Source: a virus (lineage: Duplodnaviria; Caudoviricetes). From it: 64,000 bases of DNA. The position numbers and the translations under genes were made by a program. Position 1 is the first letter of the stretch, and every line of letters starts with the position of its first letter. Positions 7,923 to 19,473 of this stretch are shown here, piece by piece. The notes beneath the pieces are model-generated. The model was not told where the DNA came from. It searched no databases and saw nothing but the letters and a program-made list of their open reading frames with translations. The stretch is taken from the IMG/VR virus record IMGVR_UViG_3300037484_000235, positions 96,001 to 160,000 of that record. One strand, given 5' to 3'.

Positions 7923-7925
7923 CTA

Positions 7926-8057
7926 GGGCAGATGCGGTGAGGACTACATAACAGGAACTCGGGGTCGCTGGTTCAAGTCCAGCCTGCCATCCTGGATGGC
8001 AGTAGCTCAGTCTGGTAGAGCACGAGTAAAAACCAATCTTCGCTAACCTTGCTGCCC
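7926..8057 (+). ncRNA. YrlA-type Y RNA (circularly permuted tRNA mimic)
   Basis: order: T arm (gctgg-TTCAAGT-ccagc), hairpin-closed acceptor (ctgccat/atggcag), D arm (gctc-agtctggta-gagc); actcg/cgagt stem leads to outer gggcag/ctgccc stem. Confidence 0.85.
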
Positions 8058-8066
8058 GAACTTTAT

Positions 8067-8142
8067 GGTGGCTGTAGCACAACGGTAGTGCGCCCGGCTG
8101 TGAACCGGGTTACGGAGGGTTCAACTCCCCCCAGTCACCCCA
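8067..8142 (+). tRNA. tRNA-His(GTG)
   Basis: cccgg-ctGTGaa-ccggg, G-1, CCA. Confidence 0.9.
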
Positions 8143-8149
8143 GATGTAT

Positions 8150-8224
8150 TGGCTCGTAGCTCAACGGGAGAGCACCCGGCTGATAACCGGGAGGTCGTGG
8201 GTTCGACTCCCACTGGGCCAACCA
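8150..8224 (+). tRNA. tRNA-Ile(GAT)
   Basis: cccgg-ctGATaa-ccggg, CCA. Confidence 0.9.
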
Positions 8225-8233
8225 GTTCGTTTG

Positions 8234-8306
8234 TGCGATGCGGCGGGGACGCCGTCCAGGCCTCATAAGCCAGGAATGCCAGGTTCAACTCCTGGGATCG
8301 CAACCA
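8234..8306 (+). tRNA. tRNA(CAT), atypical D arm
   Basis: ggc-ctCATaa-gcc, T arm, CCA. Confidence 0.7.
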
Positions 8307-8312
8307 AGTGAT

Positions 8313-8387
8313 TGCCCTGTAGCTCAACGGAAGAGCGCTGTCTCGACAAGGCAGAGGCCGTGGGTTCAACTCCCACTAGGGCAACCA
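8313..8387 (+). tRNA. tRNA-Val(GAC), C33
   Basis: ctgtc-tcGACaa-ggcag, CCA. Confidence 0.85.
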
Positions 8388-8391
8388 ACGA

Positions 8392-8462
8392 TGTTCTGTC
8401 TAGTTGGAAGGGGGCCCTAATCGCGAGGGGCCGCGCAGGTTCAAGTCCTGCCAGAGCAGCCA
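8392..8462 (+). ncRNA. degenerate tRNA-like RNA
   Basis: tgttctg/cagagca acceptor, intact T arm and CCA; no D stem, non-canonical anticodon loop. Confidence 0.5.
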
Positions 8463-8528
8463 AGCTCGCCTACCATGTGTGGGTGGAGTAACGGGGTCGT
8501 GTCCTCACGGGGACGGCCCCAGCTTTAT

Positions 8529-8603
8529 CGCGGGATGGAGAAGTGGTATCTCGTCGGGCTCATAACCCGGAGAACGCCGGTTCAAATCCGGCTCCCGCAA
8601 CCA
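8529..8603 (+). tRNA. initiator tRNA-fMet(CAT)
   Basis: C1:A72 mismatch, GGG/CCC anticodon stem, CCA. Confidence 0.9.
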
Positions 8604-8606
8604 AAT

Positions 8607-8683
8607 GGGGTCGTAGCTCAGTTGGGAGAAGCGCCTGCATCGCAAGCAGGAGGTCGTGAGTTCAAATCTCACCGATTCCACCA
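8607..8683 (+). tRNA. tRNA-Ala(CGC)
   Basis: G3:U70, cctgc-atCGCaa-gcagg, CCA. Confidence 0.9.
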
Positions 8684-8740
8684 TGTTTTAATAGTGGTTG
8701 ACTTACCATACTGAATGGTTCAACCTTCACCGTATCCACC

Positions 8741-9322
8741 ATGCTAGACACAGATCACCCTGAGGAAATTGTTTCCTCATCTTGGGATGGCCGTCCTCGA
8801 AGACTTGTTGCCAATCTTTGTGGTCATTGTCATGGCAGGTTCTTTGCCCCGAGACACACAACTGCAAAGTTCTGTTCTAAGACATGCTCCGACGAGTCAC
8901 AGAAGAACAAGACCGTTCTTGTTTGTGCCCAATGTAAAAGGTCTTTTGAGCGTGTTCCCAGTACCTTGAAGAACTCCCGGAGTGGGGTGAGATTCTGTCA
9001 GAGATCCTGTAAGGATGAGGCTCAAAGACTTGAGGGTCTCAAGGCCATACACCCTTCTCACTACGGGAGTGACATCACCCACAAGAAAGCTCTGATTAGG
9101 GATAGGGGACACAAGTGCGAGGTGTGTGGTTTCTCTCGGTGGCAAGGCAAGCCAATATCTCTGCACGTCGATCATGTCGACGGAAACCCTTATGACCACT
9201 CCCTAAGCAACCTTCGATTGATCTGTCCAAACTGTCATACCCAGACGCCAACTTATGGCGGCAGGAATAGAGGAAGGGGGAGAAAGTCGCGAAAGCTTCC
9301 GGATTGGAGTGACGTGAGGTGA
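8741..9322 (+). CDS. HNH endonuclease with Zn-ribbon N-terminus
   Basis: CEVC..LHVDHVDGN..NLRLICPNCH. Confidence 0.9.
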   Translation: MLDTDHPEEIVSSSWDGRPRRLVANLCGHCHGRFFAPRHTTAKFCSKTCSDESQKNKTVLVCAQCKRSFERVPSTLKNSRSGVRFCQRSCKDEAQRLEGLKAIHPSHYGSDITHKKALIRDRGHKCEVCGFSRWQGKPISLHVDHVDGNPYDHSLSNLRLICPNCHTQTPTYGGRNRGRGRKSRKLPDWSDVR

Positions 9323-9334
9323 TGGGGTGTTTTT

Positions 9335-9407
9335 CGGGGTGTAGCTCAAATGGGAGAGCTTTGGCGAACAGCCAAAGATCAGGGTTCGAATCCCTGCTAC
9401 CCGGCCA
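9335..9407 (+). ncRNA. tRNA-like RNA with 5-nt anticodon loop
   Basis: D arm gctc/gagc, tttggc-gaaca-gccaaa, T arm cagggTTCGAATccctg, CCA. Confidence 0.6.
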
Positions 9408-9541
9408 GTGTTGTGGAAATACTCGATGGGGATTACATTACCTGCTAAGTAATCGATCTGGGTTCGACTCCCAGGCGCTCCCGTAAGGGGGCGAGCCAGG
9501 GGCTAGAAAAACATCTCTGTCATCACTTGTTTCACAGCACT
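9407..9541 (+). ncRNA. YrlA-like RNA 2
   Basis: outer stem agtgttgtgg/tcacagcact; T arm ctggg-TTCGACT-cccag; acceptor closed by GTAA tetraloop; minimal D-like hairpin. Confidence 0.65.
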
Positions 9542-9551
9542 ACTTCTTTTC

Positions 9552-9692
9552 GTGGTGAATACCGCAGTGACTACATGGAAAACGGTTGCCGAAAGGCGTG
9601 TGGGCTTCGATACCCACCTCAGCCTCGCAAGGGCTGAGTGGCGGAATGGCAGACGCGACTGCAAATGTCACTGTGACCCCTCTTGTCACCAC
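9552..9692 (+). ncRNA. YrlA-like RNA 3 (class II tRNA-derived)
   Basis: gtggtga/tcaccac and cgcagtgac/gtcactgtg stems; variable arm gccGAAAggc, T arm, closed acceptor ctcagcc/ggctgag, Leu-type D arm. Confidence 0.8.
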
Positions 9693-9833
9693 ACTAACTT
9701 CGCATGGGCCCTACGGGGTCCATGTGCAGACGGGTCTCGTAGGTCGCGCCAGGCCCTACGAGCTGGAAGATAGGGGACGCCACCCGCGAAAGCGATCAGC
9801 GGCCCCGAGTCCTGTCCGTGTTCCTGGTATTCT

Positions 9834-9908
9834 GGGGCTGTAGCTCAGTTGGGAGAGCGTCTCCATGGCATGGAGAAGGTCAAGGGTTCGATTCCCTTCA
9901 GCTCCACC
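9834..9908 (+). tRNA. tRNA-Ala(GGC)
   Basis: G3:U70, tctcc-atGGCat-ggaga. Confidence 0.9.
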
Positions 9909-10067
9909 GTAAGGGTAGTTCAAGTTGCGGTCGCGTACCGCACGGGGACGTAGGACAACCACAAGTCTGTGCACAGGTCGGTGGGAAGATCACGCGACGT
10001 GAGAGCTGCCTTCCAATAGAAGGTGAACGCAGGCGGAAACCCTGCCCCTTACGACAATTTCAAACAT

Positions 10068-10143
10068 GGGGACGTAGCTCAGCTGGGAGAGCGCGGGCTT
10101 TGCAAGCCTGAGGTCGCAGGTTCAATCCCTGTCGTCTCCACCA
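10068..10143 (+). tRNA. tRNA-Ala(TGC)
   Basis: cgggc-ttTGCaa-gcctg, CCA. Confidence 0.9.
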
Positions 10144-10144
10144 A

Positions 10145-10238
10145 GGTGTAGGATTGCTAATCGGTAGGCAGGGAGGCTACAGGCTGACGAGCCTGGTACG
10201 GCCACCCGTATTGCAGGTTCAACTCCTGCCCAGCACCC
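10145..10238 (+). ncRNA. long-variable-arm tRNA-like RNA without canonical anticodon loop
   Basis: acceptor ggtgtagg/ccagcacc, caggct-gacg-agcctg, variable arm gtacgg/ccgtat, T arm. Confidence 0.55.
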
Positions 10239-10243
10239 CGTGT

Positions 10244-10318
10244 GCCCTCGTAGCTCAGTGGGAGAGCACCACATTGGTAATGTGGGGGTCGCCGGTTCAA
10301 TCCCGGCCGAGGGCTCCA
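10244..10318 (+). tRNA. tRNA-Thr(GGT)
   Basis: ccaca-ttGGTaa-tgtgg, CCA. Confidence 0.9.
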
Positions 10319-10328
10319 AGTTCGTTTT

Positions 10329-10399
10329 GCGGGCATGGTCAAGTGGCTTGGCCCTAGGCTTCCAACCTAGAGACGCGAGTTCGATTCTCGCTGCCCGCT
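10329..10399 (+). tRNA. tRNA-Gly(TCC)
   Basis: ctagg-ctTCCaa-cctag. Confidence 0.9.
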
Positions 10400-10514
10400 C
10401 AAATGTTCGTTCCGTTCGGAGGTGGTTTGATCAGGCCAAGTGACGCAAGACTAGCTCCGGGGCTATGATCTCGGTGCGTTACCGATTGAGCTACCTCCGA
10501 ACGGAACGACGAGT

Positions 10515-10589
10515 GCGGGTGTGGCGCAGTGGTAGCGCATCAGCTTCCCATGCTGAATGTCGCGGGTTCGACTCCCGCCACCCGCTCCA
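10515..10589 (+). tRNA. tRNA-Gly(CCC)
   Basis: tcagc-ttCCCat-gctga, CCA. Confidence 0.9.
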
Positions 10590-10680
10590 GGTTGAATGCC
10601 ACGTCGGGAGTACATCCCTATACGATAAACCCTCTCGACAACCGTGCAGACTAGTGCTGCACACCTTGTCAACCTTTCAC

Positions 10681-10755
10681 GACGCGGTCCTTCTGGCGGA
10701 AGGCAGCAGATTGCAACCCTGCTTGAGGTGAGTTCGATTCTCACCCGCGTCTCCA
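10681..10755 (+). tRNA. tRNA-Cys(GCA)
   Basis: loop ttGCAac, U73, CCA. Confidence 0.85.
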
Positions 10756-10760
10756 CCAAT

Positions 10761-10837
10761 GCGGCAATAGCTTAGTGGGAGAGCTACCCTGTCCTGAATA
10801 GGCGAGGGTGACATGGGTTCGATCCCCGTTTGCTGCA
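10761..10837 (+). ncRNA. tRNA-like RNA with extended anticodon arm
   Basis: gcggcaa/ttgctgc acceptor, D and T arms normal; accct/agggt encloses 14 nt. Confidence 0.6.
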
Positions 10838-11246
10838 TCGGTTTCAACTATGGGGGCAGGGAGACCTGCTACCCTAGACACCGCCCTTAACTGGGCCAGC
10901 CTAGTTAGCAACTAGGTGGTGGTGTATGCTGGACGGTTGTGGGAGTACTAGTCCAGGGGAGAGCATGAACCCAACGAAGAGGATCGGGTAGACTCTGGTC
11001 CGCACAAGTTTGTATGGCGTGCGTCTCGGGGAACACCCAGGCAGATGCCTCCTGGCACGGTGATACACACCCTAGACGTGCCATCTAACGCCGTTCCCCT
11101 TCGGGGGTTCATGGAACCGAGTCCGTCTTCGGGCGGCTTGGGTGCGAGCGGATTCGCATAGGAAAAGATTCGAAGCGCCGCTGCTGTCGAAGACACAGGT
11201 CGGGGTGTCGACCGAGCCCTGACACGTAGCTAAAGAGTCGGTCTAT

Positions 11247-11321
11247 GCACTCGTAGTTCAGGGGAAGAACTCCCGTCTTCTAAGCGGGTTGTCGGGGGTT
11301 CGAATCCTCCCGGGTGCGCCA
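11247..11321 (+). tRNA. tRNA-Arg(TCT)
   Basis: cccgt-ctTCTaa-gcggg, CCA. Confidence 0.9.
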
Positions 11322-11331
11322 CAAGGTCAAT

Positions 11332-11407
11332 GTCCGTATAGTGAAACTGGATATCACGCATCTCTACGAAAGATGTATTGCAGGTTCGAATCCTGCTATG
11401 GGCGCCA
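11332..11407 (+). tRNA. tRNA-Arg(ACG)
   Basis: catct-ctACGaa-agatg, CCA. Confidence 0.9.
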
Positions 11408-11409
11408 AT

Positions 11410-11485
11410 GTCTCTGTAGTGAAACGGATCATCACGCGGGCCTCCGAAGCCCTTATTGCTGGTTCGAATCCAGCCAGAGACGCCA
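11410..11485 (+). tRNA. tRNA-Arg(CCG)
   Basis: gggc-ctCCGaa-gccc, CCA. Confidence 0.9.
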
Positions 11486-11493
11486 AGTACAAT

Positions 11494-11568
11494 CCCTCCG
11501 TCCAGCGGGTCTGGGGACGCGCTTCATAAGCGTGCTTGCGAGCGGTTCGAGTCCGCCCGGTGGGACCA
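11494..11568 (+). tRNA. tRNA(CAT) Met/Ile2
   Basis: cgcgc-ttCATaa-gcgtg, CCA. Confidence 0.75.
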
Positions 11569-11903
11569 TTCTCTGTGCAGAGCCGCTGACGACACGTCAG
11601 CATGGCGCAGTACAAGTCTGCATAGACGGGTGTGGAACTCGGACTGGTCGGATGCTGGTGAGAAGACCAGCTAAGCGCAGAGGATGAACACGTTTGAGTG
11701 CGTCTTGACTGATTCAAGTTCAAGACAGCCTGCCAGCAATCAGTTGCTGACTGTCAACCTGCCGATCTCATACAAGGGACACCTAGTGTCGGCCTTCAGA
11801 TGCGTCGCTTTGCGGCTCCTCTGACTGGAAGCGTACTAGGGCGGTCACACAGTGACCGGGTGAGTGTTGTCTCAATCTATCCTAGATCATTCTCGGGATC
11901 TTT

Positions 11904-11978
11904 CGGGGTGTAGCGCAGTGGTAGCGCGTCTGTTTCGGGAACAGAAAGTCGTCGGTTCGATCCCGGCCACCCCGACCA
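11904..11978 (+). tRNA. tRNA-Pro(CGG)
   Basis: tctgt-ttCGGga-acaga, CCA. Confidence 0.9.
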
Positions 11979-12077
11979 CAACATCGTCAGCCACTTCAGC
12001 GCCCCTCGGGGAAGTCTGTTGCGTGTTGATGATGGGTCACCCCCTGGGCGCGTCCGGGCTAGGGTGACTGTGTTTCT

Positions 12078-12152
12078 CTGGGTGTAGCGAAGTGGTATCG
12101 CGCTCGGTTTGGGGCCGAGAAATCGCTGGTTCGATCCCAGCCACTCAGACCA
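12078..12152 (+). tRNA. tRNA-Pro(TGG)
   Basis: ctcgg-ttTGGgg-ccgag, CCA. Confidence 0.9.
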
Positions 12153-12180
12153 CAACATCGCTCTCACCTCGGTTTGGGCG

Positions 12181-12249
12181 GTGGGCTTCACCTCTGTGTC
12201 GGCCGCACGGGGTGGGCTTCACCTCTGTGTCGGCCGCACGGGGTGGGCT
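12181..12249. repeat. 31-bp tandem repeat (2 full copies + partial)
   Basis: gtgggcttcacctctgtgtcggccgcacggg x2 then gtgggct. Confidence 0.9.
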
Positions 12250-12259
12250 GTGATTTTCT

Positions 12260-12334
12260 CGGGGCGTGGCGAAGTGGTATCGCGCTCGGCTGGGGGTCGA
12301 GAGATCGCAGGTTCGATCCCTGTCGCCCCGACCA
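12260..12334 (+). tRNA. tRNA-Pro(GGG)
   Basis: ctcgg-ctGGGgg-tcgag, CCA. Confidence 0.9.
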
Positions 12335-12585
12335 CTCTGGTTCGATTGGATCCTCGACCAGAGCCCAACCCTGTCAGGAGTCTGCCGTTAGGAGACGGCA
12401 CAGAACAAGCCGGGACATAGTGTACGGCAACACAATCCGGCAAGTCCGGATAAAAGCGATTCAATTCCGCGCGTCTCGGGGAAGTCTGAGGTGTGTGCTA
12501 CACACCTGACGGGGAAGGGAACTTTTTGCTGGTGAATCATGTAATCTCCCGGGGGTCATCCGTTACACTGGTGAAGGAAGCAACC

Positions 12586-12747
12586 ATGAAGCCCTACGAC
12601 ATCGACCGAAAGCGCCACGAGACTTGCCGCTACGGGTGCTGCACGAACCCTCAGGGCAGCAAGAAGCACCTCGCGACACGTCGCCGTCAGAAGCGGTCTT
12701 CCAGGGCGCATGGGCGCCAGGAGATCCGGGAGACCACGGCGTCATGA
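12586..12747 (+). CDS. small basic protein
   Basis: SD GAAGGAAG, MKPYDIDRKRHETCRYGCC.., ATGA-coupled to next ORF. Confidence 0.6.
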   Translation: MKPYDIDRKRHETCRYGCCTNPQGSKKHLATRRRQKRSSRAHGRQEIRETTAS

Positions 12748-13073
12748 ACAACGACCGACCCACGACACTTGCAGAGTGGCTCGTTTCCGAAGAGAAGGCG
12801 CCTGACCAAAGTAAGCTGGCTGCGTGGCTCGTCTCTGACGAGGACGAGACGCCTGACCAAAGCAAGCACGCGTTCCACATGGGGTGGGTCCGGGCAGGTT
12901 GCTTGAAGAAGCATGGCATCACAGCAGCCACCCGGCGCCAGGCCCGTAAGGCTGCGGCCCGGTGCGAGGCAACGGACTTCATGGCCGGATGGTACGTCCG
13001 GCAGCTCGCTGACTTCCTGGGATGCTGGGGACCAATCTCCCAACTCGATGTACGGGGCGTGAACCGCTCCTGA
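12744..13073 (+). CDS. hypothetical protein with internal duplication
   Basis: LAEWLVSEEKAPDQSK / LAAWLVSDEDETPDQSK repeat. Confidence 0.6.
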   Translation: MNNDRPTTLAEWLVSEEKAPDQSKLAAWLVSDEDETPDQSKHAFHMGWVRAGCLKKHGITAATRRQARKAAARCEATDFMAGWYVRQLADFLGCWGPISQLDVRGVNRS

Positions 13074-13102
13074 ACCGCTCCTGACGTGTTCGGATGTTCC
13101 AT

Positions 13103-13323
13103 ACCTCTGTAGCGCAACGGAAGCGCGTCGGAAAAACGAAGCCGATATCGTAAAAGACGCCGTACCACCTGCTACCCTGAATCCAAATGGGATAGGGGGT
13201 GTGGGGAACCCCCAAAGGTTGCAGAAGCACCGAATGGCTTGGAGACAGGTCACTAGGGAAGCGCGGTTTCCTAAGAAGGGGGTTTGGGTGTGGATGAAGT
13301 GGGTTCGACTCCCACCAGGGGTG
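13103..13323 (+). ncRNA. tRNA frame with large insert replacing anticodon arm
   Basis: acctctg/caggggt acceptor, gcgc-aacggaa-gcgc D arm, gtggg-TTCGACT-cccac T arm separated by about 170 nt. Confidence 0.65.
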
Positions 13324-13330
13324 CTAAAAA

Positions 13331-13406
13331 CCGCTCTTAGTTCAATCGGACTCAGAACCCCCGTCTCATAAACGGGTATGTCTCGGTTCGAATCCGGGAG
13401 AGCGGA
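13331..13406 (+). tRNA. tRNA(CAT) Met/Ile2
   Basis: cccgt-ctCATaa-acggg. Confidence 0.85.
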
Positions 13407-13419
13407 CAAATAGGGTGCT

Positions 13420-13614
13420 GTGATGATCGACTTCAATGCAGAGTACAGGCATCGACGGAAGGGTTTCCGTGTGATCGTAGGGGAGCCCGCTTGGTGGGAC
13501 ACCATGGAAGCTAACCGGGTTGTGGTCTACAAGTTGGGGGCCATGTCTGGACCTCTGCACTGGGTGATGAAACGATCGTCGTTCGAGCGGTTGTACGAAG
13601 TCATGCGCGCGTAA
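13420..13614 (+). CDS. small hypothetical protein
   Basis: 64-aa ORF; stop codon lies inside tRNA-Val. Confidence 0.55.
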   Translation: MMIDFNAEYRHRRKGFRVIVGEPAWWDTMEANRVVVYKLGAMSGPLHWVMKRSSFERLYEVMRA

Positions 13615-13764: not shown

Positions 13765-13849
13765 GTGAGAGTGGTGGAATGGCAGTCACGCTGGGCTAAG
13801 GACCCAGTGCCCCCAACGGGGCGTGCGGGTTCGACTCCCGCCTTTCACA
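13765..13849 (+). tRNA. tRNA-Leu(AAG)
   Basis: ctggg-ctAAGga-cccag, long variable arm. Confidence 0.85.
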
Positions 13850-13867
13850 CAAAGTGCAGTGCAACAT

Positions 13868-13955
13868 GCTGGGGTGGCGAAATGGCAGACGCACCAGGTT
13901 CAGAACCTGGCGGGGTTTAAACCTCATGGGGGTTCAAGTCCCCCCCTCAGCACCA
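13868..13955 (+). tRNA. tRNA-Leu(CAG)
   Basis: ccagg-ttCAGaa-cctgg, CCA. Confidence 0.9.
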
Positions 13956-13967
13956 AAGAGTACACAT

Positions 13968-14052
13968 GCAAGATTGGCGAAACTGGCAGACGCTACGGGC
14001 TGAGAGTCCGTCGGGTAATACCGTGAGGGTTCGACTCCCTCATCTTGCACCA
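13968..14052 (+). tRNA. tRNA-Leu(GAG)
   Basis: acggg-ctGAGag-tccgt, CCA. Confidence 0.9.
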
Positions 14053-14059
14053 GTAGTGA

Positions 14060-14135
14060 GGGAGCGTAGCCCAACGGCAGAGGCAGTGCATTTAGGGTGC
14101 ACTCAGTGTGGGTTCGAATCCCACCGTTCCTACCA
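14060..14135 (+). tRNA. tRNA-Leu(TAG), short variable loop
   Basis: gtgca-ttTAGgg-tgcac, 5-nt variable loop, CCA. Confidence 0.85.
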
Positions 14136-14138
14136 AAT

Positions 14139-14223
14139 GCCCCGGTGGCGAAACGGCAAACGCGGTGGATTTAAAATCCGCTGCCGAAAGGTGTTGCGGG
14201 TTCGACTCCCGCTCGGGGCACCA
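14139..14223 (+). tRNA. tRNA-Leu(TAA)
   Basis: gtgga-ttTAAaa-tccgc, CCA. Confidence 0.9.
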
Positions 14224-14231
14224 AGATGTAT

Positions 14232-14317
14232 GCGGGCGTGGCGGAATGGCAGACGCACTGGTTTCAAAAATCAGCGGGGGAAACCTCATGAGGGTCCGAC
14301 TCCCTCCGCCCGTACCA
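14232..14317 (+). tRNA. tRNA-Leu(CAA)
   Basis: ctggt-ttCAAaa-atcag, CCA. Confidence 0.9.
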
Positions 14318-14416
14318 ATCTTTCTCTGGGGTATCATGTAATGGGCCTATCCTCATCCGTTAGTTGAGTGAGGATTCAACAGTCAACGTTCGTCACAAAG
14401 GAAAGGCAGGTAGACA

Positions 14417-14947
14417 ATGCATAAGACGCTTGTTCTCGATCAGGGCTACCAGCCTCACCGCGTGGTGAGTTGGCAGCGAGCCGTCACGATGTGGTGGGAC
14501 GGCAAGTGTGAGATCGTCGAGGAGTATGACGAAGACATCCGGAGCGTGACCTTCACGATCAAGATGCCTGCTGTAGTCAGACTTCTTCAGCGGGTTCGGG
14601 GGAAGAAGCAGGCTGTCAAGTTCTCGCGGATCAACGTCGCGACACGGGACAACATGACTTGTCAGTACTGTTCTGACAAGCTTCCGCTCTCGAAGCTCAC
14701 CTACGATCACGTTGTCCCAAGATCTCAGGGTGGAAAGACTCTGTGGGAGAACATCGTGATGGCCTGTTACGGCTGCAACGAGAAGAAGGCCGACCGCACT
14801 CCTGCTCAGGCGAAGATGCCTTTGAAGAAGGTGCCGGTGAAGCCAGCCTTCCTTCCGGTGATCTCGATGCGTTTCGAGACGGGTTCCTGCCCGGATCTGT
14901 GGCGCTCTTGGATCTACTGGAACACCGCCCTCGAAGAGGGCAGCTAG
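14417..14947 (+). CDS. HNH endonuclease (McrA/HNH_5-like)
   Basis: TLVLDQGYQP..RDNMTCQYC..TYDHVVPRSQGG..WENIVMACYGCNEKK. Confidence 0.92.
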   Translation: MHKTLVLDQGYQPHRVVSWQRAVTMWWDGKCEIVEEYDEDIRSVTFTIKMPAVVRLLQRVRGKKQAVKFSRINVATRDNMTCQYCSDKLPLSKLTYDHVVPRSQGGKTLWENIVMACYGCNEKKADRTPAQAKMPLKKVPVKPAFLPVISMRFETGSCPDLWRSWIYWNTALEEGS

Positions 14948-15173
14948 GGAGTTTGGGCCTGACATGGTAGGCCCCAGGCAGGACGGTGTCTGCGCTCTGC
15001 AAAACCTGTGGGCCTCATGATCCCACGGGTCCGTCATACAACTTGGAGGTCCGGCTAGGTCCGGACAGCCTCTGCTGGATAAGGCATCGTGGGCGATGGT
15101 AGGAGCCACACGAAGACCCAGCCCCTTTTCAGATCTTCTGGCCCCCCGATGAATTCTGGGGTCCGTACAAAAT

Positions 15174-15250
15174 CGGAGTGTGGCGCAGCCTGGTAGCGCA
15201 TCTGCTTTGGGAGCAGAGGGTCGCAGGTTCAAATCCTGTCGCTCCGACCA
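15174..15250 (+). tRNA. tRNA-Pro(TGG), second copy
   Basis: tctgc-ttTGGga-gcaga, CCA. Confidence 0.92.
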
Positions 15251-15259
15251 ACGTTGAAT

Positions 15260-15347
15260 GGAAACTGAACTAGACTGGGTCTGGGCCCGCTTGGAAAGCG
15301 GTGAGATATCGCAAGGTGTTGAGGTTCAATTCCTCCGGTTTCCGCCA
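15260..15347 (+). tRNA. tRNA-Ser(GGA)
   Basis: ccgc-ttGGAaa-gcgg, long variable arm, GCCA. Confidence 0.85.
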
Positions 15348-15348
15348 T

Positions 15349-15468
15349 GAGTCGTGCTTGGTGCTTGGGAAGCTAGCTCCCACCTTCGGGTTCGATTCCC
15401 GACGGGTAAGGCAAATGGGGCCCTACTTAGAACTGGTAAGGAAGAGGGTTCGATCCCCTCGCGACTCA
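15349..15468 (+). ncRNA. tRNA-like RNA with two T arms
   Basis: gagtcgt/gcgactc closes tcggg-TTCGATT-cccga and gaggg-TTCGATC-ccctc. Confidence 0.55.
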
Positions 15469-15579
15469 CCCAACTAGAAAGGTTCCAGCATCCGTATTCC
15501 AAAATATTCGAGAATACGTTGGAAAGGGCTCATGAAAACACCTTGCCCCTGGATCAGATAGGGGTTAGCATGCGGAGGT

Positions 15580-15966
15580 ATGCCGTATGCTAACCCAACC
15601 CAACAGCGAGAGTACCAGGTAAGGTGGCTGAGAAAGCGACGCGAGGAATGGTTGAAGGCTCACGGACCCTGCGTGGCTTGTCGCTCTACGGTTGATTTAG
15701 AGGTCGATCATGTAGATCCAAACCTGAAGCTCGACCATAACGTGTGGTCGTGGTCAGAGTGCCGCAGGGCAGAGGAGTTGGCGAAGTGTCAAATCCTCTG
15801 CAAACGGTGCCACATGAAGAAGACACTTGAGCAAAGACCTAGTACTCAGCACGGATGTGCTCAGATGTATCAGAAGTACAAGTGTCGGTGTGATGTCTGC
15901 CGCTCATGGAAACAGGCTTCAGACGCAAGATACAGAAGTGTTCGAAAATCGAAGTTCGGAAGATAA
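15580..15966 (+). CDS. HNH endonuclease
   Basis: CVACRSTVDLEVDHVDP..CQILCKRCH plus C-terminal CRCDVC. Confidence 0.9.
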   Translation: MPYANPTQQREYQVRWLRKRREEWLKAHGPCVACRSTVDLEVDHVDPNLKLDHNVWSWSECRRAEELAKCQILCKRCHMKKTLEQRPSTQHGCAQMYQKYKCRCDVCRSWKQASDARYRSVRKSKFGR

Positions 15967-16047
15967 ATCAGCCAGGGGCTGAACCTGCTTTGAACACAGT
16001 GTGGGCCTGTCAAAGGGTCTGGGTTTCGAGTACTCTGTCTTCCGCCA
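15958..16047 (+). tRNA. tRNA-Ser(TGA)
   Basis: ggaagat/gtcttcc acceptor, loop ttTGAac, long variable arm; weak anticodon stem. Confidence 0.75.
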
Positions 16048-16049
16048 AC

Positions 16050-16229
16050 ATGCCAGTCGAATTCAAATGTGTGGGTGGGGCCCATCTCCCGGTGGGGTGC
16101 GGGGCTGTATTCACATGGCCTGAGCCACCGCCGCACAGCGATCGGTACTGCCACAAGTGCGGCAACCTCTACGTCCAGTGGGTGAACTACGAGAAGTGGA
16201 TTGCCTGGCTGGCCAAGTCCGGTGGTTGA
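16050..16229 (+). CDS. small Zn-finger protein
   Basis: CxxxxxxxxxC..YCHKCGNLY. Confidence 0.6.
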   Translation: MPVEFKCVGGAHLPVGCGAVFTWPEPPPHSDRYCHKCGNLYVQWVNYEKWIAWLAKSGG

Positions 16230-16286
16230 TCCGCCTTTGTTGTGGTCATACCTGTGCAGAGCCACAGGACTACCGAAACGCGTGAG

Positions 16287-16571
16287 TTACAGAATAGGTA
16301 GTTCCGTTACAGGATCTTGAAACTCTATCCTGAAGTCAGAGAGTTCCGATTCCGTGAGAACGGTGAGAAGCTGTGTTAGTGCACCCTGTTGGAGGGTAGA
16401 CATCTCACGTTTGTTCGGGAATTCCCGAGCTATGAAGATTCGGCTGCTAGATTCAGAGAAGGTTCTCTCAAACCTGGCAGTAATCAAAGCTTGTGATTCT
16501 CTGGATAGAGAGTAGGTGTCCCCGTCCCGATTGGAGGATGTGTAGATAACGAGGGTCTCTTTTGTCGCCAT
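16287..16571 (-). CDS. hypothetical protein
   Basis: MATKETLV.. start chosen outside the tRNA-Ser overlap. Confidence 0.55.
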   Translation of the reverse strand: MATKETLVIYTSSNRDGDTYSLSRESQALITARFERTFSESSSRIFIAREFPNKREMSTLQQGALTQLLTVLTESELSDFRIEFQDPVTELPIL

Positions 16572-16587
16572 GGGAGACCATACCTTT

Positions 16588-16676
16588 GGAAGGTGAATCG
16601 GCCAGGGGCCGAGCTGGTTTCGAAAGCCATGCGGGCCCATCAAGGGTCTGGGGATCAAGACCTCCGCCTTCCGCCA
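16588..16676 (+). tRNA. tRNA-Ser(CGA)
   Basis: tggt-ttCGAaa-gcca, long variable arm, GCCA. Confidence 0.85.
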
Positions 16677-16873
16677 ATGTAACACCTGCGCTTTTCCCTG
16701 AGTTGAAGCTCATCGCAAAGCACCATGTAGGCTCCGTGGTAAGCGGTGTCCGGGGTGGTGTTCTCGTCTTCAGGCAAGTCATCGTCATCCATTTCGGAAC
16801 GGGGCCTGCCCCCTTCGAGGTGTGAGACTAGGGCTTCGATTGTGGCCTTGAGTTGATTCTTGGTGAGTCGCAT
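16655..16873 (-). CDS. small acidic hypothetical protein
   Basis: 72-aa ORF with protein-like composition. Confidence 0.45.
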   Translation of the reverse strand: MRLTKNQLKATIEALVSHLEGGRPRSEMDDDDLPEDENTTPDTAYHGAYMVLCDELQLREKRRCYIGGRRRS

Positions 16874-16929
16874 ACTCTCTCATGCGCGTGAGCACGGCTC
16901 TGGTTGCAGGAGGGCGTAAGTAAAAGTTC

Positions 16930-16990
16930 GGGGAGGTGCTCGCGGGAGCTAGTGCACTAAAGCCAGATTCGACTTCTGGCCTCTCCACCG
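16930..16990 (+). ncRNA. mini tRNA-Ala-like RNA lacking anticodon
   Basis: ggggagg/cctctcc with G3:U70, A73; D and T arms; anticodon arm reduced to tagtgcacta. Confidence 0.65.
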
Positions 16991-16992
16991 TT

Positions 16993-17079
16993 GGAAGCTG
17001 AATTGGTGATGGCACCAAGCTTGATTGCTAATCAATGCGTGCCTACGGGCATGGGGTTCGAATCCTCCGGTTTCCGCCA
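16993..17079 (+). tRNA. tRNA-Ser(GCT)
   Basis: ttga-ttGCTaa-tcaa, long variable arm, GCCA. Confidence 0.85.
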
Positions 17080-17134
17080 AGCAATCGTGTAAGAAGTCCT
17101 CTCCCGGCCGTTAGTGGGGTGAGGAAAGAACATC

Positions 17135-17300
17135 GGGGATTTAGCACAATGGTAGTGCTCTCCAACCGGGTGATACCGGCAGGGGTGGTCTAGAGGCGAG
17201 GAGATCCGACGGAGGGGTAGCTGCCCGAGTCGACTCCAAGAATCTAGGGCGGTGGGGCGAAAGCTCCACGGAGTGGGTTCGAGTCCCACAATCTCCACCA
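17135..17300 (+). ncRNA. Ala-identity tRNA frame with ~105-nt insert
   Basis: ggggatt/aatctcc (G3:U70), ACCA end, D arm gcac/gtgc, ctcc/ggag stem enclosing the insert. Confidence 0.7.
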
Positions 17301-17459
17301 CGAGATCAGACGTGCATCACTCTTAATGGTGTACTGAGGAGTGGGGTGCCGCTAGCGTACTACGTTGGCTTGGAGGGAACTGATCATCCTTCTGGGCCAT
17401 CGCGGACAGGCCGATGGCTGACGTTTAGGGACATCTTGTTTGCGGTCTCGTGCTTTTCG

Positions 17460-17571
17460 CGTTCGGTTCGGGGAGAGCTTCGATTGAGCTGGTTTGTACA
17501 GACTAGGTGAAATAGTCCGACGCTCAGGGATACCAGGGCGTTGCTTGATCAGTCTCTCCCCCAACCGAACG
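17460..17571 (+). ncRNA. long-stem RNA, Y-RNA candidate upstream of rsr
   Basis: cgttcggtt/aaccgaacg, ggggagag/ctctcccc and gattgagc/gcttgatc stems with two apical hairpins. Confidence 0.5.
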
Positions 17572-17578
17572 ACAGTTT

Positions 17579-17653
17579 GCGGCTGAGGTGCCTACGGTAG
17601 CACGCGGCGTTGCCAATGCTGAGGCGCGGGTTCGACTCCCGCCAGCCGCTCCA
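17579..17653 (+). tRNA. tRNA-Gly(GCC)
   Basis: cggcg-ttGCCaa-tgctg, CCA. Confidence 0.9.
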
Positions 17654-17691
17654 CGAAGGAATCCTGTTCAGTTGTCAGTGGCACAGATCAG

Positions 17692-19359
17692 ATGAAAGAG
17701 GGGAATTACATCATGGCAAATCGAAAGCTTTTCGCGTCCGCTCCGGCTGGTCGGGTAGCACCGCCCACCGACACTGTGAACTCTGCTGGTGGTCGAGCCT
17801 ACAAGGCTGGTCCGAAGGAGGCGCTCGCCCAGTACGTGGCGACCGGCTGCCTTGGGGCAACCTTCTACGCTTCGGCTGAGGAGCAGCTCGATGAGATCCT
17901 CAAGCTCGCGTCCGACGTGAGCCCGGAGTTCGTCGCACAGGCGGCCGTCTACGGACGTCGGTCTGCGTTCATGAAGGACACTCCGGCGCTTCTGCTCGCG
18001 CACCTGGCGACCCGTGGTCCAGAGGGTCTTGCTGCGCTCAAGGCGGCATTCAACCAGGTCGTAGACAACCCGAAGATGCTCCGCACCTTCGTGCAGATCA
18101 TGCGCTCGGGCAAGGTCGGCCGGAAGTCACTCGGCACCGCACCCAAGACCCTGGTCAAGGCGTGGTTCGATGCACGTTCTGACGTGCAGCTCTTCCGTGC
18201 GACCGGTGACAAGCCGTCGCTTGCGGACGTGATCAAGATGGTCCACCCCAAGCCCCAGAACGCGGCTCGGAAGGCCCTCTACGCCCTCCTGGTGGGCAAG
18301 AGCTACGACCTCGATGCGTGCGATGCACTCGTCCAGGAGTTCGAGGCGTGGAAGAAGGATCCGTCGCGGCCAGTACCGGACGTTCCCTTCCTCATGCTCA
18401 CGAACGTCCAGCTCGACAAGAAGCAGTGGGTGGCTATCGCCCGGTCGGCTTCCTGGCAGACCGCACGCATGAACCTCAACACGTTCCTGCGTCACGGTGT
18501 GTTCGAGGACAAGGCAATGATCAAGGTCATTGCGGCCAAGCTGCGGGATGAGTCGGAGATTGCTCATGCACGGGTCTTCCCGTACCAGCTTCTCGTCGCG
18601 TACCGGAACGTCTCTGGCGTTCCGATGGAGATCCAGAGCGCCCTCCAGGACGCGATGGAGATCGCAACGAAGAACGTTCCTGTGATCGATGGGACCGTCG
18701 CTGTCTTCCCAGACGTGTCGGGTTCCATGTGCAGCCCGGTCACGGGTGCACGGGGTTCCGCAACCACCAAGGTCGAGTGCAAGGACGTAGCGGCGCTAGT
18801 GGCCGCTACGATTCTCCGGCGCAACCCTGGTGCGCGCGTGGTTCCCTTCAAGGAGGACGTGATCAACCTTCGGCTCAACCCGAAGGACAGCATCGTCACC
18901 ATCGCGGAGCAGATCGCGAAGTGTGGCTCGGGCGGCACCAACTGCTCGGCACCACTGCGCCTCCTGAACTCTGAGAAGGCCAAGGCGGACCTTATCGTCT
19001 ACGTCTCAGACAACGAGTCGTGGATGGATCCAAACGTCTCCCTCAACTCGTACTCCTCGGGGTACACCAGCTCGCCAACGAGCATGATGGCGGAGTGGGA
19101 GAAGTTCCGCGTCCGCAACCCGGCGGCAAAGCTCGCCTGCATCGACCTCGCGCCCAACGGTTCTCGTCAGGCACCAACTCGCAAGGACATCCTGAATGTC
19201 GGAGGCTTCTCTGACGAGGTCTTCACCCTGCTCTCCGAGTTCCACAAGGGCTCGGGAGGCGACCACTGGGCGAAGAAGATCGGGAGTGTTCAGCTCGGTC
19301 GTGAAGTCCCAGTCGCACCCGTGAAGCCCACGGGTGGAACTGATTGGGTGACCCTCTAA
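17692..19359 (+). CDS. rsr: Ro60/TROVE-VWA RNA-binding protein
   Basis: DTVNSAGGRAY..TGCLGATFYASAEEQL TROVE N-terminus; SWQTARMNLNTF; VWA MIDAS DVSGSM; GGTNCSAP; SDNESW. Confidence 0.95.
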   Translation: MKEGNYIMANRKLFASAPAGRVAPPTDTVNSAGGRAYKAGPKEALAQYVATGCLGATFYASAEEQLDEILKLASDVSPEFVAQAAVYGRRSAFMKDTPALLLAHLATRGPEGLAALKAAFNQVVDNPKMLRTFVQIMRSGKVGRKSLGTAPKTLVKAWFDARSDVQLFRATGDKPSLADVIKMVHPKPQNAARKALYALLVGKSYDLDACDALVQEFEAWKKDPSRPVPDVPFLMLTNVQLDKKQWVAIARSASWQTARMNLNTFLRHGVFEDKAMIKVIAAKLRDESEIAHARVFPYQLLVAYRNVSGVPMEIQSALQDAMEIATKNVPVIDGTVAVFPDVSGSMCSPVTGARGSATTKVECKDVAALVAATILRRNPGARVVPFKEDVINLRLNPKDSIVTIAEQIAKCGSGGTNCSAPLRLLNSEKAKADLIVYVSDNESWMDPNVSLNSYSSGYTSSPTSMMAEWEKFRVRNPAAKLACIDLAPNGSRQAPTRKDILNVGGFSDEVFTLLSEFHKGSGGDHWAKKIGSVQLGREVPVAPVKPTGGTDWVTL

Positions 19360-19367
19360 CCAAATGG

Positions 19368-19468
19368 TGGTCTTTTTCGTCCCCTACACAAGTCGAAGTC
19401 ACAACTCCAAGTGACGCCACGCCAGAAGTCGAGCCTGGGGCGGTTTGTGTGGGGGGCGAAGAAGGTCA
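19368..19468 (+). ncRNA. Y RNA candidate downstream of rsr (YrlB position)
   Basis: about 26-bp terminal stem followed by GTCGAAG (GNCGAAN0-1G motif) and two apical hairpins. Confidence 0.7.
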
Positions 19469-19473
19469 TCTAT

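What the first reader, a model, noticed from the sequence alone, without database searches (positions are those of the whole stretch)
7926..19468. Phage Ro60 (rsr) with an expanded family of Y RNAs and tRNA mimics
Seen: a full TROVE-VWA gene inside the tRNA island, three circularly permuted tRNA-like RNAs (7926, 9407, 9552), a long-stem RNA with the GTCGAAG motif right after rsr, another long stem just before it, and about eight tRNA frames with no usable anticodon. Known: bacterial Rsr binds Y RNAs, YrlA RNAs mimic tRNA with the anticodon arm replaced by the Ro-binding stem, and rsr-yrl loci are linked to RNA decay and repair (PNPase, RtcB). Inference: this phage encodes a multi-adaptor Ro60 RNP system in which each Y RNA recruits or decoys a different tRNA-recognising host factor (PNPase, anticodon nucleases, synthetases, uncharged-tRNA sensors). 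I know of one or two Y RNAs per locus, so this many would be unusual.
Basis: partly seen in the sequence, partly recalled or inferred. Interest (0 to 1): 0.92.

Follow-up and report, generated by a model that had tools for sequence, protein, structure and literature searches.

The report
Phage Ro60 with six Y RNAs
A large environmental phage carries a Ro60 (Rsr) gene and, scattered through its 50-gene tRNA array, six small RNAs that share the Ro60-binding stem of bacterial Y RNAs, three of them mimicking different kinds of tRNA. This is more copies and more variety than the one or two Y RNAs described for any phage or bacterium in the papers I could read.

Summary
**Verdict:**
- **Rsr:** window 17692-19359 encodes a genuine Rsr/Ro60.
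- **tRNA mimics:** all three claimed permuted tRNA mimics (7925, 9408, 9552) are YrlA-type Y RNAs.
- **Extra members:** a clade-specific covariance model adds three shorter RNAs with the same stem but no tRNA module (6981, 7176, 10590), giving six in all.

**Evidence for the family**
- The shared stem is 96% paired over 63 sequences, with compensatory changes at all 7 pairs.
- Five of the six have positional orthologs in a syntenic relative.
- Related rsr-encoding phages carry 2-11 members. Rsr phages outside the clade give 0-2.
- Complete relatives without rsr keep only 1-2 ("orphan" Y RNAs).

**Not supported**
- The two long stems flanking rsr are strongly structured, but they occur only in this genome and lack the family signature.
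- Most "tRNA frames without anticodon" are tRNA-Ser genes (GGA, UGA, CGA, GCU), three of them drawn by ARAGORN with an 8-bp acceptor and 4-bp T stem.
- One real oddity remains: a 166-nt Ala-type tRNA with about 97 nt replacing the anticodon region.

**Untested:** the multi-adaptor mechanism. No RtcB or Rnl ligase gene was found, and no RNA-seq run holds the sequence.

The scan had already noted this same stretch in an overlapping window of the same genome, not on other DNA. This is a new variant of a known system.

The parts
17692..19359 (+). rsr: Ro60/Rsr protein, 555 aa (TROVE + Ro60-type vWA)
   Evidence: Pfam vWA_Ro60 65.4 bits and TROVE 30.9 bits, both above their cut-offs. PDB: D. radiodurans Rsr 2NVO at 1e-20 and phage phiLo Ro60 9KOP at 7e-19. 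45% identical to Myxococcus phage Mx1 Rsr.
6981..7047 (+). Y-a: minimal Y RNA (67 nt). It has the outer stem, GACGAAUGC, helix 2 and GUACAU, then a loop, and closes with UUGUC and the outer stem. No tRNA module.
   Evidence: R1 25.9 bits, E 3e-4, and not in the training set. Folds as stem, internal loop, stem (z = -2.2). Starts 0 nt after tRNA-Asn and ends 6 nt before tRNA-Trp. Ortholog at L011:4239-4310. Class covariation.
7176..7282 (+). Y-b: Y RNA (107 nt) with the Ro-type stem (GGGCGAAUGC...CUACAU...CUUGUCGC) and a two-hairpin module in place of the tRNA mimic
   Evidence: R1 32 bits, E 1e-5, and not in the training set. Fold z = -2.65. Ends 4 nt before tRNA-Asp. Syntenic R1 hit at L011:4395-4533.
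7925..8058 (+). Y-c: canonical YrlA-type Y RNA. It has the Ro stem, T arm, closed acceptor hairpin and a class I D arm.
   Evidence: Rfam YrlA full model, 59 bits, E 2e-11. R1 106 bits. Orthologs in every related rsr phage. Lies 1 nt after tRNA-Arg(CCT) and 9 nt before tRNA-His.
9408..9541 (+). Y-d: YrlA variant. It keeps an anticodon-arm mimic (5-bp stem, 7-nt loop) and has a T arm, a GNRA-closed acceptor hairpin and a reduced D element.
   Evidence: R1 57 bits. Fold z = -3.3. Four orthologs show covariation in the extra arm, while its loop sequence is not conserved. Starts 0 nt after tRNA-Val(AAC).
9552..9692 (+). Y-e: YrlA variant built on a class II (Leu-like) tRNA. It has a V-arm hairpin, T arm, closed acceptor hairpin and a Leu-type D arm.
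   Evidence: R1 67.6 bits. Fold z = -2.6. The D-arm region is closest to the phage's own tRNA-Leu(CAA). Leu-type D arms are also seen in the G006 members at L057 and L058.
10590..10675 (+). Y-f: short Y RNA (86 nt). It is the minimal core plus one extra hairpin.
   Evidence: R1 20.3 bits, E 6e-3. Fold z = -3.3. Lies between tRNA-Gly(CCC) (0 nt) and tRNA-Cys (5 nt). Orthologs in the same slot at L011:6362-6429 and in the rsr-less G016.
19368..19468 (+). Long-stem RNA immediately 3' of rsr, containing GUCGAAG. Most likely a 3' stabiliser or processing hairpin. Y RNA status is not supported.
   Evidence: z = -6.0. Not hit by R1. Close relatives have a plain GC hairpin at this position. No homolog in any fetched locus.
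17460..17572 (+). Long-stem RNA upstream of tRNA-Gly and rsr. Function unknown; possibly a processing site.
   Evidence: z = -5.65. Not hit by R1. The equivalent regions of L010 and L011 are not structured. No homolog found.
17135..17300 (+). Ala-type tRNA-like RNA (G3-U70, A73, encoded CCA, normal D and T arms) in which about 97 nt of structured RNA replaces the anticodon and variable region
   Evidence: Rfam tRNA 38 bits against a gathering score of 29, with a 97-nt insertion. tmRNA model only 26.8 bits against 47. No Ro-stem signature. No homolog found.
15260..17079 (+). Four tRNA-Ser genes: GGA 15260-15347, UGA 15958-16047, CGA 16588-16676 and GCU 16993-17079. The last three are drawn with an 8-bp acceptor and 4-bp T stem. 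Small ORFs lie between them, including an HNH-like ORF.
   Evidence: ARAGORN at relaxed thresholds, with structure drawings for the UGA, CGA and GCU genes. tRNA-Sec model about 33 bits for the GGA and GCU genes. BLAST homologs in L010 and L011.
6336..20928 (+). tRNA array: 46 tRNAs at default stringency, all on the + strand, into which the Y RNAs and rsr are embedded
   Evidence: ARAGORN and Rfam tRNA.

Best explanation
The phage encodes its own Ro60 (Rsr) and six Y RNA genes. All six share one protein-binding module: the YrlA-type closing stem. Its 5' strand carries the outer stem, (G)NCGAAUGC, then helix 2 ending in GAC, then UACAU. Its 3' strand carries helix 2', then CUUGUC, then the outer stem.

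The RNAs differ in what that stem carries:
- Y-c: a class I tRNA mimic.
- Y-e: a class II, Leu-like tRNA mimic.
- Y-d: a nearly complete tRNA mimic that keeps an anticodon arm.
- Y-b: a two-hairpin module.
- Y-a and Y-f: almost nothing.

The genes sit flush between tRNAs in one long + strand array. They are most likely transcribed with the tRNAs and released by the enzymes that trim tRNAs (RNase P at the downstream tRNA, and 3' processing of the upstream tRNA).

Each mature RNA is inferred to bind Rsr through the shared stem. This would give a set of Rsr particles in which the variable module either tethers Rsr to a tRNA-binding partner such as PNPase, as shown for bacterial and phiLo Y RNAs, or merely gates the Rsr cavity (the minimal forms).

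Shown here: the gene, the RNA family, its structure, its conservation, its copy number and its link to rsr. Inferred: co-transcription, processing, Rsr binding and partner specificity.
For: - **Rsr identity:**
- **Rfam support:** YrlA full-model hit for Y-c. The Rfam consensus shows the same stem motifs (CgaAUGC, CUAc, cUuGucG) as the phage family.
- **Model hits:** R1 finds six full-model hits in the window and none elsewhere in the 252-kb genome. Three of them were not in the training set.
- **Covariation, model-based alignment:** outer stem 95.7% paired with 7 of 7 pairs showing compensatory changes, and helix 2 82.6% paired. The score is 0.381 against at most 0.074 when partners are slid.
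- **Covariation, independent MAFFT alignment of 18 minimal members:** 92% paired, score 0.63 against at most 0.22.
- **Synteny:** five of the six have positional orthologs in G001.
- **Conserved distinct modules:**
- **Placement:** 0-1 nt after the upstream tRNA (Y-a, Y-c, Y-d, Y-f) and 4-9 nt before the downstream tRNA (Y-a, Y-b, Y-c, Y-f). The same flush layout occurs in G017.
- **Link to rsr:** 17 rsr-encoding records have 2-11 members (median 6), against 1-2 in four complete rsr-less genomes (Mann-Whitney p = 0.002).
- **Literature:** bacterial YrlA binds Rsr and is handled by RNase P, the CCA enzyme and tRNA-modifying enzymes (PMC4201824). Phage phiLo Ro60 binds two phage Y-like RNAs and host PNPase (PMC12135203).
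Against: - There are no expression data. No RNA run holds the sequence.
- Only Y-c is seen by Rfam, and it scores below the gathering threshold (59 against 69).
- The GNCGAAN0-1G motif is exact only in Y-a and Y-b. It varies in the other four.
- The RNAs lie 7.0-10.6 kb from rsr, not within the 4 kb typical of bacteria (PMC4201824).
- Family members occur in complete phage genomes without rsr, so phage Rsr cannot be their only possible partner.
- No RtcB or Rnl-type ligase was found.
- The rsr-positive versus rsr-negative contrast is confounded by relatedness, genome size and how the two groups were ascertained.
- R1 was trained on this clade, so counts in outgroup phages may be underestimates.
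Confidence: 0.65

Rival explanations
1. The six RNAs are real Y RNAs but functionally redundant. They would be copies made by duplication inside a recombination-prone tRNA array (HNH endonucleases are present) and kept only for dosage, with no division of labour.
For: - Tandem arrangement: Y-d and Y-e are 10 nt apart.
- HNH endonuclease ORFs lie inside the array.
- Copy number varies widely among relatives, from 2 to 11.
Against: - The paralogs are old and distinct.
- Each class has orthologs in phages whose Rsr is only 50-83% identical.
- The different module designs (class I, Leu-like class II, anticodon-arm-bearing, minimal) are themselves conserved.
Confidence: 0.17
2. The RNAs act mainly on host factors rather than through the phage Rsr. 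They could be decoys or sponges for host Rsr, PNPase, anticodon nucleases or other tRNA-recognising defence enzymes. The phage rsr would then be an accessory to this system.
For: - Four complete phage genomes carry 1-2 family members, including a 115-bit YrlA, with no TROVE or vWA_Ro60 gene.
- The tRNA mimics copy different tRNA classes.
- PMC12135203 proposes that phiLo Ro60 and its Y-like RNAs hijack host PNPase.
Against: - Large families of 3-11 members are seen only where the phage also encodes Rsr.
- The part conserved across all members is the Ro-binding stem, not the tRNA-like part.
Confidence: 0.13
3. The elements are only cis-acting spacers or processing signals of the polycistronic tRNA transcript and have no function once released.
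For: They sit flush against tRNA ends.
Against: - The conserved sequence motifs are those of the Rfam YrlA Ro stem.
- The tRNA-mimic domains keep the invariant D-loop and T-loop residues.
- The family is linked to rsr.
- Most tRNA junctions in the same array have no such element.
Confidence: 0.05

Closest known systems
Bacterial Rsr with YrlA and YrlB (Salmonella Typhimurium, Mycobacterium smegmatis; Rfam RF02553; Chen et al. 2014, PMC4201824)
   Same: - Both have a Ro60 ortholog and Y RNAs on the same strand.
- The closing stem carries the GNCGAAN0-1G motif.
- In YrlA the stem carries a permuted tRNA mimic: T arm, closed acceptor hairpin, D arm.
- A second, shorter Y RNA lacks the full mimic.
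   Different: - There are six RNAs here rather than two.
- There are three different tRNA-mimic designs, including class II Leu-like and anticodon-arm-bearing forms.
- The genes are embedded in a tRNA array 7-10.6 kb from rsr instead of adjacent to it.
- There is no rtcBA operon.
- Y-c scores below the Rfam gathering threshold.
Mycobacteriophage (Bxz1/ET08-type) Rsr with a single YrlA (Chen et al. 2014)
   Same: A phage-encoded Rsr and a YrlA-type tRNA mimic, in a large phage that also carries many tRNAs.
   Different: With the same models, ET08 gives one strong hit next to rsr and at most one weak hit. This phage gives six, and some relatives give up to 11.
Thermus phage phiLo Ro60 with Yrl1 and Yrl2 (PMC12135203)
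   Same: A phage Ro60 binds phage-encoded Y-like RNAs found upstream of the gene. A ternary complex forms with host PNPase.
   Different: phiLo has two Y-like RNAs, identified from their structure and a CGAA motif. R1 and Rfam YrlA find nothing in phiLo. The two Ro60 proteins are only distantly related (E 7e-19).
Deinococcus radiodurans Rsr, Yrn1 and PNPase (RYPER) and vertebrate Y1-Y5 RNAs
   Same: Several Y RNAs per genome share a Ro-binding stem and differ in the rest. The Y RNA acts as a tether and as a gate.
   Different: These systems have two to four RNAs. According to PMC4201824, the D. radiodurans tRNA-like features evolved independently. They are not arranged in a tRNA array.

Membership tests
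Ro60/Rsr (TROVE + vWA) | TROVE (HEAT-repeat ring) domain | tested here: met
   Pfam TROVE 30.9 bits against a cut-off of 23. phmmer alignment to D. radiodurans Rsr 2NVO over residues 28-465, E 1e-20.
Ro60/Rsr (TROVE + vWA) | C-terminal Ro60-type von Willebrand A domain | tested here: met
   Pfam vWA_Ro60 65.4 bits against a cut-off of 27.7, residues 341-517.
Ro60/Rsr (TROVE + vWA) | Ring with a central cavity, a MIDAS site and Y RNA binding | not tested
   I did not predict a structure. Binding needs experiments.
YrlA (Rfam RF02553) | Score at or above the Rfam gathering threshold (69 bits) | tested here: not met
   Y-c scores 59 bits (E 2e-11, full model). Y-d and Y-e are not reported by Rfam at E <= 10. 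None of the relatives' copies exceed the cut-off either.
YrlA (Rfam RF02553) | Permuted tRNA-like domain: T arm, closed acceptor-like hairpin, D arm | tested here: met
   Present in Y-c and Y-e. Y-d has the T arm and acceptor hairpin but a reduced D element. T-arm pairs are 97.9% paired, acceptor 92.1% and D arm 91.8% across the family.
YrlA (Rfam RF02553) | 5'/3' closing stem with the GNCGAAN0-1G motif (PMC4201824) | tested here: inconclusive
   The stem is present in all six with strong covariation. The motif is exact in Y-a (GACGAAUG) and Y-b (GGCGAAUG). It varies in Y-f (GUUGAAUG), Y-e (GGUGAAUA), Y-c (GGCAGAUG) and Y-d.
YrlA (Rfam RF02553) | Encoded within about 4 kb of rsr on the same strand (PMC4201824) | tested here: not met
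   Same strand, but 7.0-10.6 kb upstream. In distant relatives (L018, L020, L022) a member does sit directly 3' of rsr.
YrlA (Rfam RF02553) | Bound by Rsr; substrate of tRNA-processing and tRNA-modifying enzymes | not testable with these tools
   Needs RIP, EMSA and processing assays.
YrlB (Rfam RF02565) | Score at or above the gathering threshold (97 bits) | tested here: not met
   Best hit is 6975-7052 at 22.5 bits, E 1.5. Y-a and Y-f resemble YrlB in being short, but they are not members.
tmRNA (RF00023), considered for 17135-17300 | Gathering score of 47 bits, and an mRNA-like tag reading frame | tested here: not met
   26.8 bits, tRNA-like ends only. The tRNA model fits better, at 38 bits with a 97-nt insertion. 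ARAGORN found no credible tmRNA there.

The most novel reading that the evidence does not exclude
A clade of large environmental phages carries a modular 'Y RNA toolkit' of up to about 11 genes per genome. A constant Ro60-binding stem is fused to interchangeable heads: a class I tRNA mimic, a class II Leu-like mimic, a full tRNA mimic with an anticodon arm, non-tRNA hairpins, or no head at all.

Each head would direct the phage's Rsr (or, in phages that carry only the RNAs, the host's Rsr) to a different tRNA-recognising enzyme or RNA substrate during infection. The purposes could include RNA decay, tRNA quality control, or blunting tRNA-targeting defences.
Probability: 0.35. Interest if true: 0.85.

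Novelty: new variant of a known kind. Interest (0 to 1): 0.66.

Why it matters
What bacterial Y RNAs do, beyond tethering Rsr to PNPase, and why they mimic tRNA are still open questions.

This clade offers a natural series for study. One binding stem is attached to at least five kinds of head. Copy number ranges from 1 to 11. There are matched genomes both with and without rsr.

That makes specific questions testable:
- Which head binds which partner?
- Do the minimal forms only gate the Rsr cavity?
- Can phage Y RNAs act through host Rsr?

A cultured relative, Myxococcus phage Mx1, has two unannotated members, one of which is annotated as a protein. Bench work is therefore possible.

The finding also bears on annotation. 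These RNAs are missed by Rfam thresholds, and tRNA-tRNA junctions give false YrlA hits.

Tried and rejected
- **Regex scan for the stem signature:** it gave 64 and 31 hits on the two strands against about 45 in shuffles, so it was uninformative and I replaced it with a covariance model.
- **Weak Rfam YrlA and partial R1 hits (model positions about 36-105):** these are junctions of two adjacent tRNAs (the T arm of one plus the D arm of the next), not Y RNAs.
- **Post-rsr stem as a Y RNA:** it lacks the family signature, R1 does not hit it, and it has no homolog. Close relatives have a simple hairpin there. A GNCGAAN0-1G match in about 100 nt is expected by chance about 5% of the time, by my estimate.
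- **Pre-rsr stem:** same outcome.
- **tmRNA reading of 17135-17300:** rejected.
- **'Split tRNA' at 13103-13323:** no tRNA-model support.
- **RtcB and Rnl-type ligase in the genome:** none found. The record is only 57% complete, so absence is not proven.
- **Expression:** no RNA run holds the sequence, and DNA runs share only small parts, so I laid no reads.
- **DNA-level search of cultured phages:** only isolated tRNA matches.
- **Two reviews (PMC10870794, PMC6047535):** could not be read. The statement that six exceeds any described count therefore rests on the papers I could read.

Full report
**Setting**

The window is bases 96001-160000 of a 252,521-bp IMG/VR viral record that CheckV rates 57% complete. 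ARAGORN finds 46 tRNA genes between 6336 and 20928, all on the + strand, and Rfam confirms 40 of them at gathering score. No cultured phage is close at the DNA level. The nearest cultured relative by Rsr protein is Myxococcus phage Mx1, at 45% identity.

**The protein**

ORF 17692-19359 (555 aa) matches Pfam vWA_Ro60 (65.4 bits) and TROVE (30.9 bits), both above their cut-offs. It also matches solved structures: D. radiodurans Rsr 2NVO (1e-20), phage phiLo Ro60 9KOP/9L5Y (7e-19) and vertebrate Ro60. It is a Ro60/Rsr.

**The three claimed tRNA mimics**

- 7925-8061 matches Rfam YrlA over the whole model (59 bits, E 2e-11; the gathering score is 69). It has the 5' stem, T arm, closed acceptor hairpin, D arm and 3' stem.
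- Rfam does not report 9407 or 9552. Their minimum-free-energy folds nevertheless give the same architecture on their own (z = -3.3 and -2.6).
- Both share a sequence signature with 7925 and with the best Rfam hits in related phages. The 5' strand reads outer stem, (G)NCGAAUGC (or AAUAC/GAUGC), helix 2 ending in GAC, then UACAU. The 3' strand reads (A)CGUC-helix 2', then CUUGUC, then the outer stem.
- This is the same stem as in the Rfam YrlA consensus.
- In 7925 the family's GA/UC closing pairs are replaced by AG/CU, which is a double compensatory change.

**A clade-specific model**

Using Rsr as bait I fetched 15 related viral loci, with Rsr identity of 42-83%. I aligned 20 full-length YrlA-like RNAs (A2) and built covariance model R1 with a structure I specified.

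With filters off, R1 gives six full-model hits in the window:

| Coordinates | R1 bits |
|---|---|
| 7924-8059 | 106 |
| 9551-9693 | 68 |
| 9411-9537 | 57 |
| 7175-7283 | 32 |
| 6979-7049 | 26 |
| 10588-10676 | 20 |

- The last three were not in the training set. They have the stem signature but no tRNA module.
- Nothing else in the 252-kb genome qualifies.
- All remaining hits cover only model positions of about 36-105. They are junctions of two neighbouring tRNAs, an artefact that also explains the weak Rfam YrlA hits.

**Structure support**

- On the model-guided alignment of 76 hits (A3), the outer stem is 95.7% paired over 63 sequences and all 7 pairs show compensatory changes. Helix 2 is 82.6% paired, the T arm 97.9%, the acceptor hairpin 92.1% and the D arm 91.8%. 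The covariation score is 0.381, against at most 0.074 when partners are slid and 0.109 in shuffles.
- A model-fitted alignment leans towards its own structure. I therefore also aligned 18 minimal members with MAFFT alone (A5). There the outer stem is 92.1% paired, with a covariation score of 0.63 against at most 0.22.

**Conservation and diversity**

- The island is syntenic with G001 (L011). The RNAs at 6979, 7175, 7924, 9411 and 10588 have R1 hits in the matching positions there.
- The 9407 class has four orthologs. An extra arm after UACAU has a covarying 5-bp stem (UUAC/GUAA, UUGU/ACAA, UCGA/UCGA) and a 7-nt loop whose sequence is not conserved. It is an anticodon-arm mimic, not a conserved anticodon.
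- The D-arm region of 9552 is most like the phage's own tRNA-Leu(CAA), and its V plus T part is most like tRNA-Leu(UAA). Leu-type D arms recur in two members of G006, whose Rsr is 50% identical. The class II design is therefore an old subfamily rather than a recent accident.
- 7925 is a generic class I mimic.

**Placement**

- Y-a, Y-c, Y-d and Y-f start 0-1 nt after the upstream tRNA.
- Y-a, Y-b, Y-c and Y-f end 4-9 nt before the next tRNA.
- Y-d and Y-e are 10 nt apart.
- The same flush layout (minimal Y, tRNA-Tyr, YrlA) occurs in G017.
- I infer co-transcription with the tRNAs and release by tRNA-end processing. This is not shown.

**How unusual is it?**

Full-model R1 hits per rsr-encoding record are as follows.

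| Record | Full-model R1 hits | Note |
|---|---|---|
| G020 | 11 | complete, 424 kb |
| G006 | 10 | complete, 392 kb |
| G008 | 10 | |
| G025 | 10 | |
| G001 | 8 | |
| G012 | 8 | |
| G002 | 7 | |
| This genome | 6 | |
| G009 | 6 | |
| G014 | 6 | |
| G004 | 5 | |
| G003 | 4 | |
| G007 | 3 | |
| G010 | 3 | |
| G019 | 3 | |
| G005 | 2 | |
| Mx1 | 2 | cultured |

- Rsr phages outside the clade give 0-2 with the same models. ET08 has one strong and one weak hit. The Vibrio phage, FuzzBuster and Sparky have one each. phiLo and HGTV-1 have none.
- R1 is tuned to this clade, so the outgroup counts may be underestimates.
- Published systems have one or two Y RNAs per bacterium or phage. D. radiodurans has up to four candidates, and vertebrates have two to four (PMC4201824, PMC12135203).

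**Link to rsr, and orphan Y RNAs**

- A pattern scan for the minimal-class signature found 23 sites in viral contigs. R1 confirms them as family members.
- Seven of the 16 searchable records encode Rsr.
- Four records at 90% completeness or better do not, by protein search or by the Pfam TROVE and vWA_Ro60 profiles. They are G016 (198 kb), G017 (48 kb), G023 (70 kb) and G024 (40 kb).
- These four have only 1-2 members, although G017 has a 115-bit YrlA.
- G016 has a tRNA array in the same gene order as this window. It has no YrlA between tRNA-Arg(CCT) and tRNA-His, while a minimal Y RNA remains between Gly and Cys.
- Family size is larger with rsr: median 6 against 1, Mann-Whitney p = 0.002, and p = 0.006 for complete genomes only.
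- This contrast is confounded by relatedness, genome size and ascertainment, so it is suggestive rather than conclusive.
- It also shows that these RNAs can exist without a phage Rsr. They may then use host Rsr or another partner.

**What is not supported**

- The RNA after rsr (19368-19468) is strongly structured (z = -6.0) and contains GUCGAAG. R1 does not hit it. The closest relatives have a plain GC-rich hairpin followed by a tRNA at that position. It has no homolog in any fetched locus.
- In distant relatives (L018, L020, L022) a true family member sits directly after rsr.
- The stem before rsr (17460-17572, z = -5.65) is likewise unique to this genome.
- My best reading, by inference only, is that these two stems are processing or stabilising hairpins that bracket the tRNA-Gly-rsr segment.
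- The 'tRNA frames without anticodon' are mostly tRNA-Ser(GGA, UGA, CGA, GCU), three of them drawn with an 8-bp acceptor and 4-bp T stem, plus a likely tRNA-Val(CAC). The Ser genes have homologs in relatives.
- 17135-17297 is a real oddity. It passes the tRNA model (38 bits) with Ala identity elements and an encoded CCA, but about 97 nt of structured RNA replaces the anticodon region. It has no Ro stem and no homolog.

**Context**

No RtcB or Rnl-type ligase gene is found in the incomplete record. A CCA-adding-family gene is present. HNH endonuclease ORFs interrupt the array. No RNA-seq run holds the sequence.

**Verdict**

This is a genuine phage Rsr with a family of six Y RNAs of at least five architectures, embedded in a tRNA array. 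The trait is shared and further expanded across a clade of large uncultured phages. It is a new variant of the known Rsr-Y RNA system. The multi-adaptor mechanism is plausible but untested.

Noticed in passing
Loci L135 (G016), L140 (G017), L147 (G023), L148 (G024): Complete or near-complete phage genomes carry 1-2 Y RNAs of this family, including a 115-bit YrlA in G017, but have no Rsr, TROVE or vWA_Ro60 gene. These are 'orphan' phage Y RNAs that may use host Rsr.
   Followed up: partly
window 15260-15347, 15958-16047, 16588-16676, 16993-17079: A full set of tRNA-Ser isoacceptors (GGA, UGA, CGA, GCU). ARAGORN draws the last three with a non-standard 8-bp acceptor and 4-bp T stem, long variable arms and encoded CCA. 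Default ARAGORN misses all four, and two of them hit the tRNA-Sec model at about 33 bits. Homologs exist in related phages.
   Followed up: partly
window 17135-17300: A 166-nt Ala-type tRNA-like RNA (G3-U70, A73, CCA, normal D and T arms) in which about 97 nt of structured RNA replaces the anticodon and variable region. It is not a tmRNA by score, and it is unique to this genome among the loci fetched.
   Followed up: partly
genome C1 50876-65147, 82433, 84448 (upstream of the window); window 12546 and 56541 on the minus strand: About 20 copies of a bipartite motif, CTCACC..GTAACG, then about 12 nt, then GATTACACGATT. It looks like a phage-specific promoter.
   Followed up: no
L001 (Myxococcus phage Mx1), record positions 45168-45295 and 45520-45625: Two unannotated Y RNA family members lie about 11.6 kb upstream of Mx1 rsr. 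The second overlaps a 123-nt 'hypothetical protein' CDS (45524-45646), which is probably a mis-annotation.
   Followed up: partly
window 9731-9832; L012 2673-2775: A roughly 100-nt hairpin-rich stretch just after Y-e is 73% identical to a stretch in G002 that follows the G002 ortholog of Y-d. It may be another conserved small RNA. It lacks the Ro-stem signature.
   Followed up: no
L012 5017-5425: The related phage G002 encodes a bona fide tmRNA (95.9 bits). No tmRNA passes threshold in this window.
   Followed up: no
window 8741-9322, 14417-14947, 15580-15966: HNH endonuclease ORFs are interspersed in the tRNA array. They are likely mobile elements that could drive rearrangement and duplication of tRNA and Y RNA genes.
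   Followed up: no
G012:1600-3252, G018:7436-9058, G019:17349-19016: Rsr homologs in three related records are read through one in-frame stop (TAA or TAG) or are split into two adjacent pieces. Possible causes are recoding, a frameshift, an insertion or decay.
   Followed up: no
window 10146-10239: A 94-nt type II tRNA-like element is inserted between tRNA-Ala(UGC) and tRNA-Thr relative to G001. Its acceptor stem is imperfect and ARAGORN calls an implausible ACA anticodon. Its status is unclear.
   Followed up: partly
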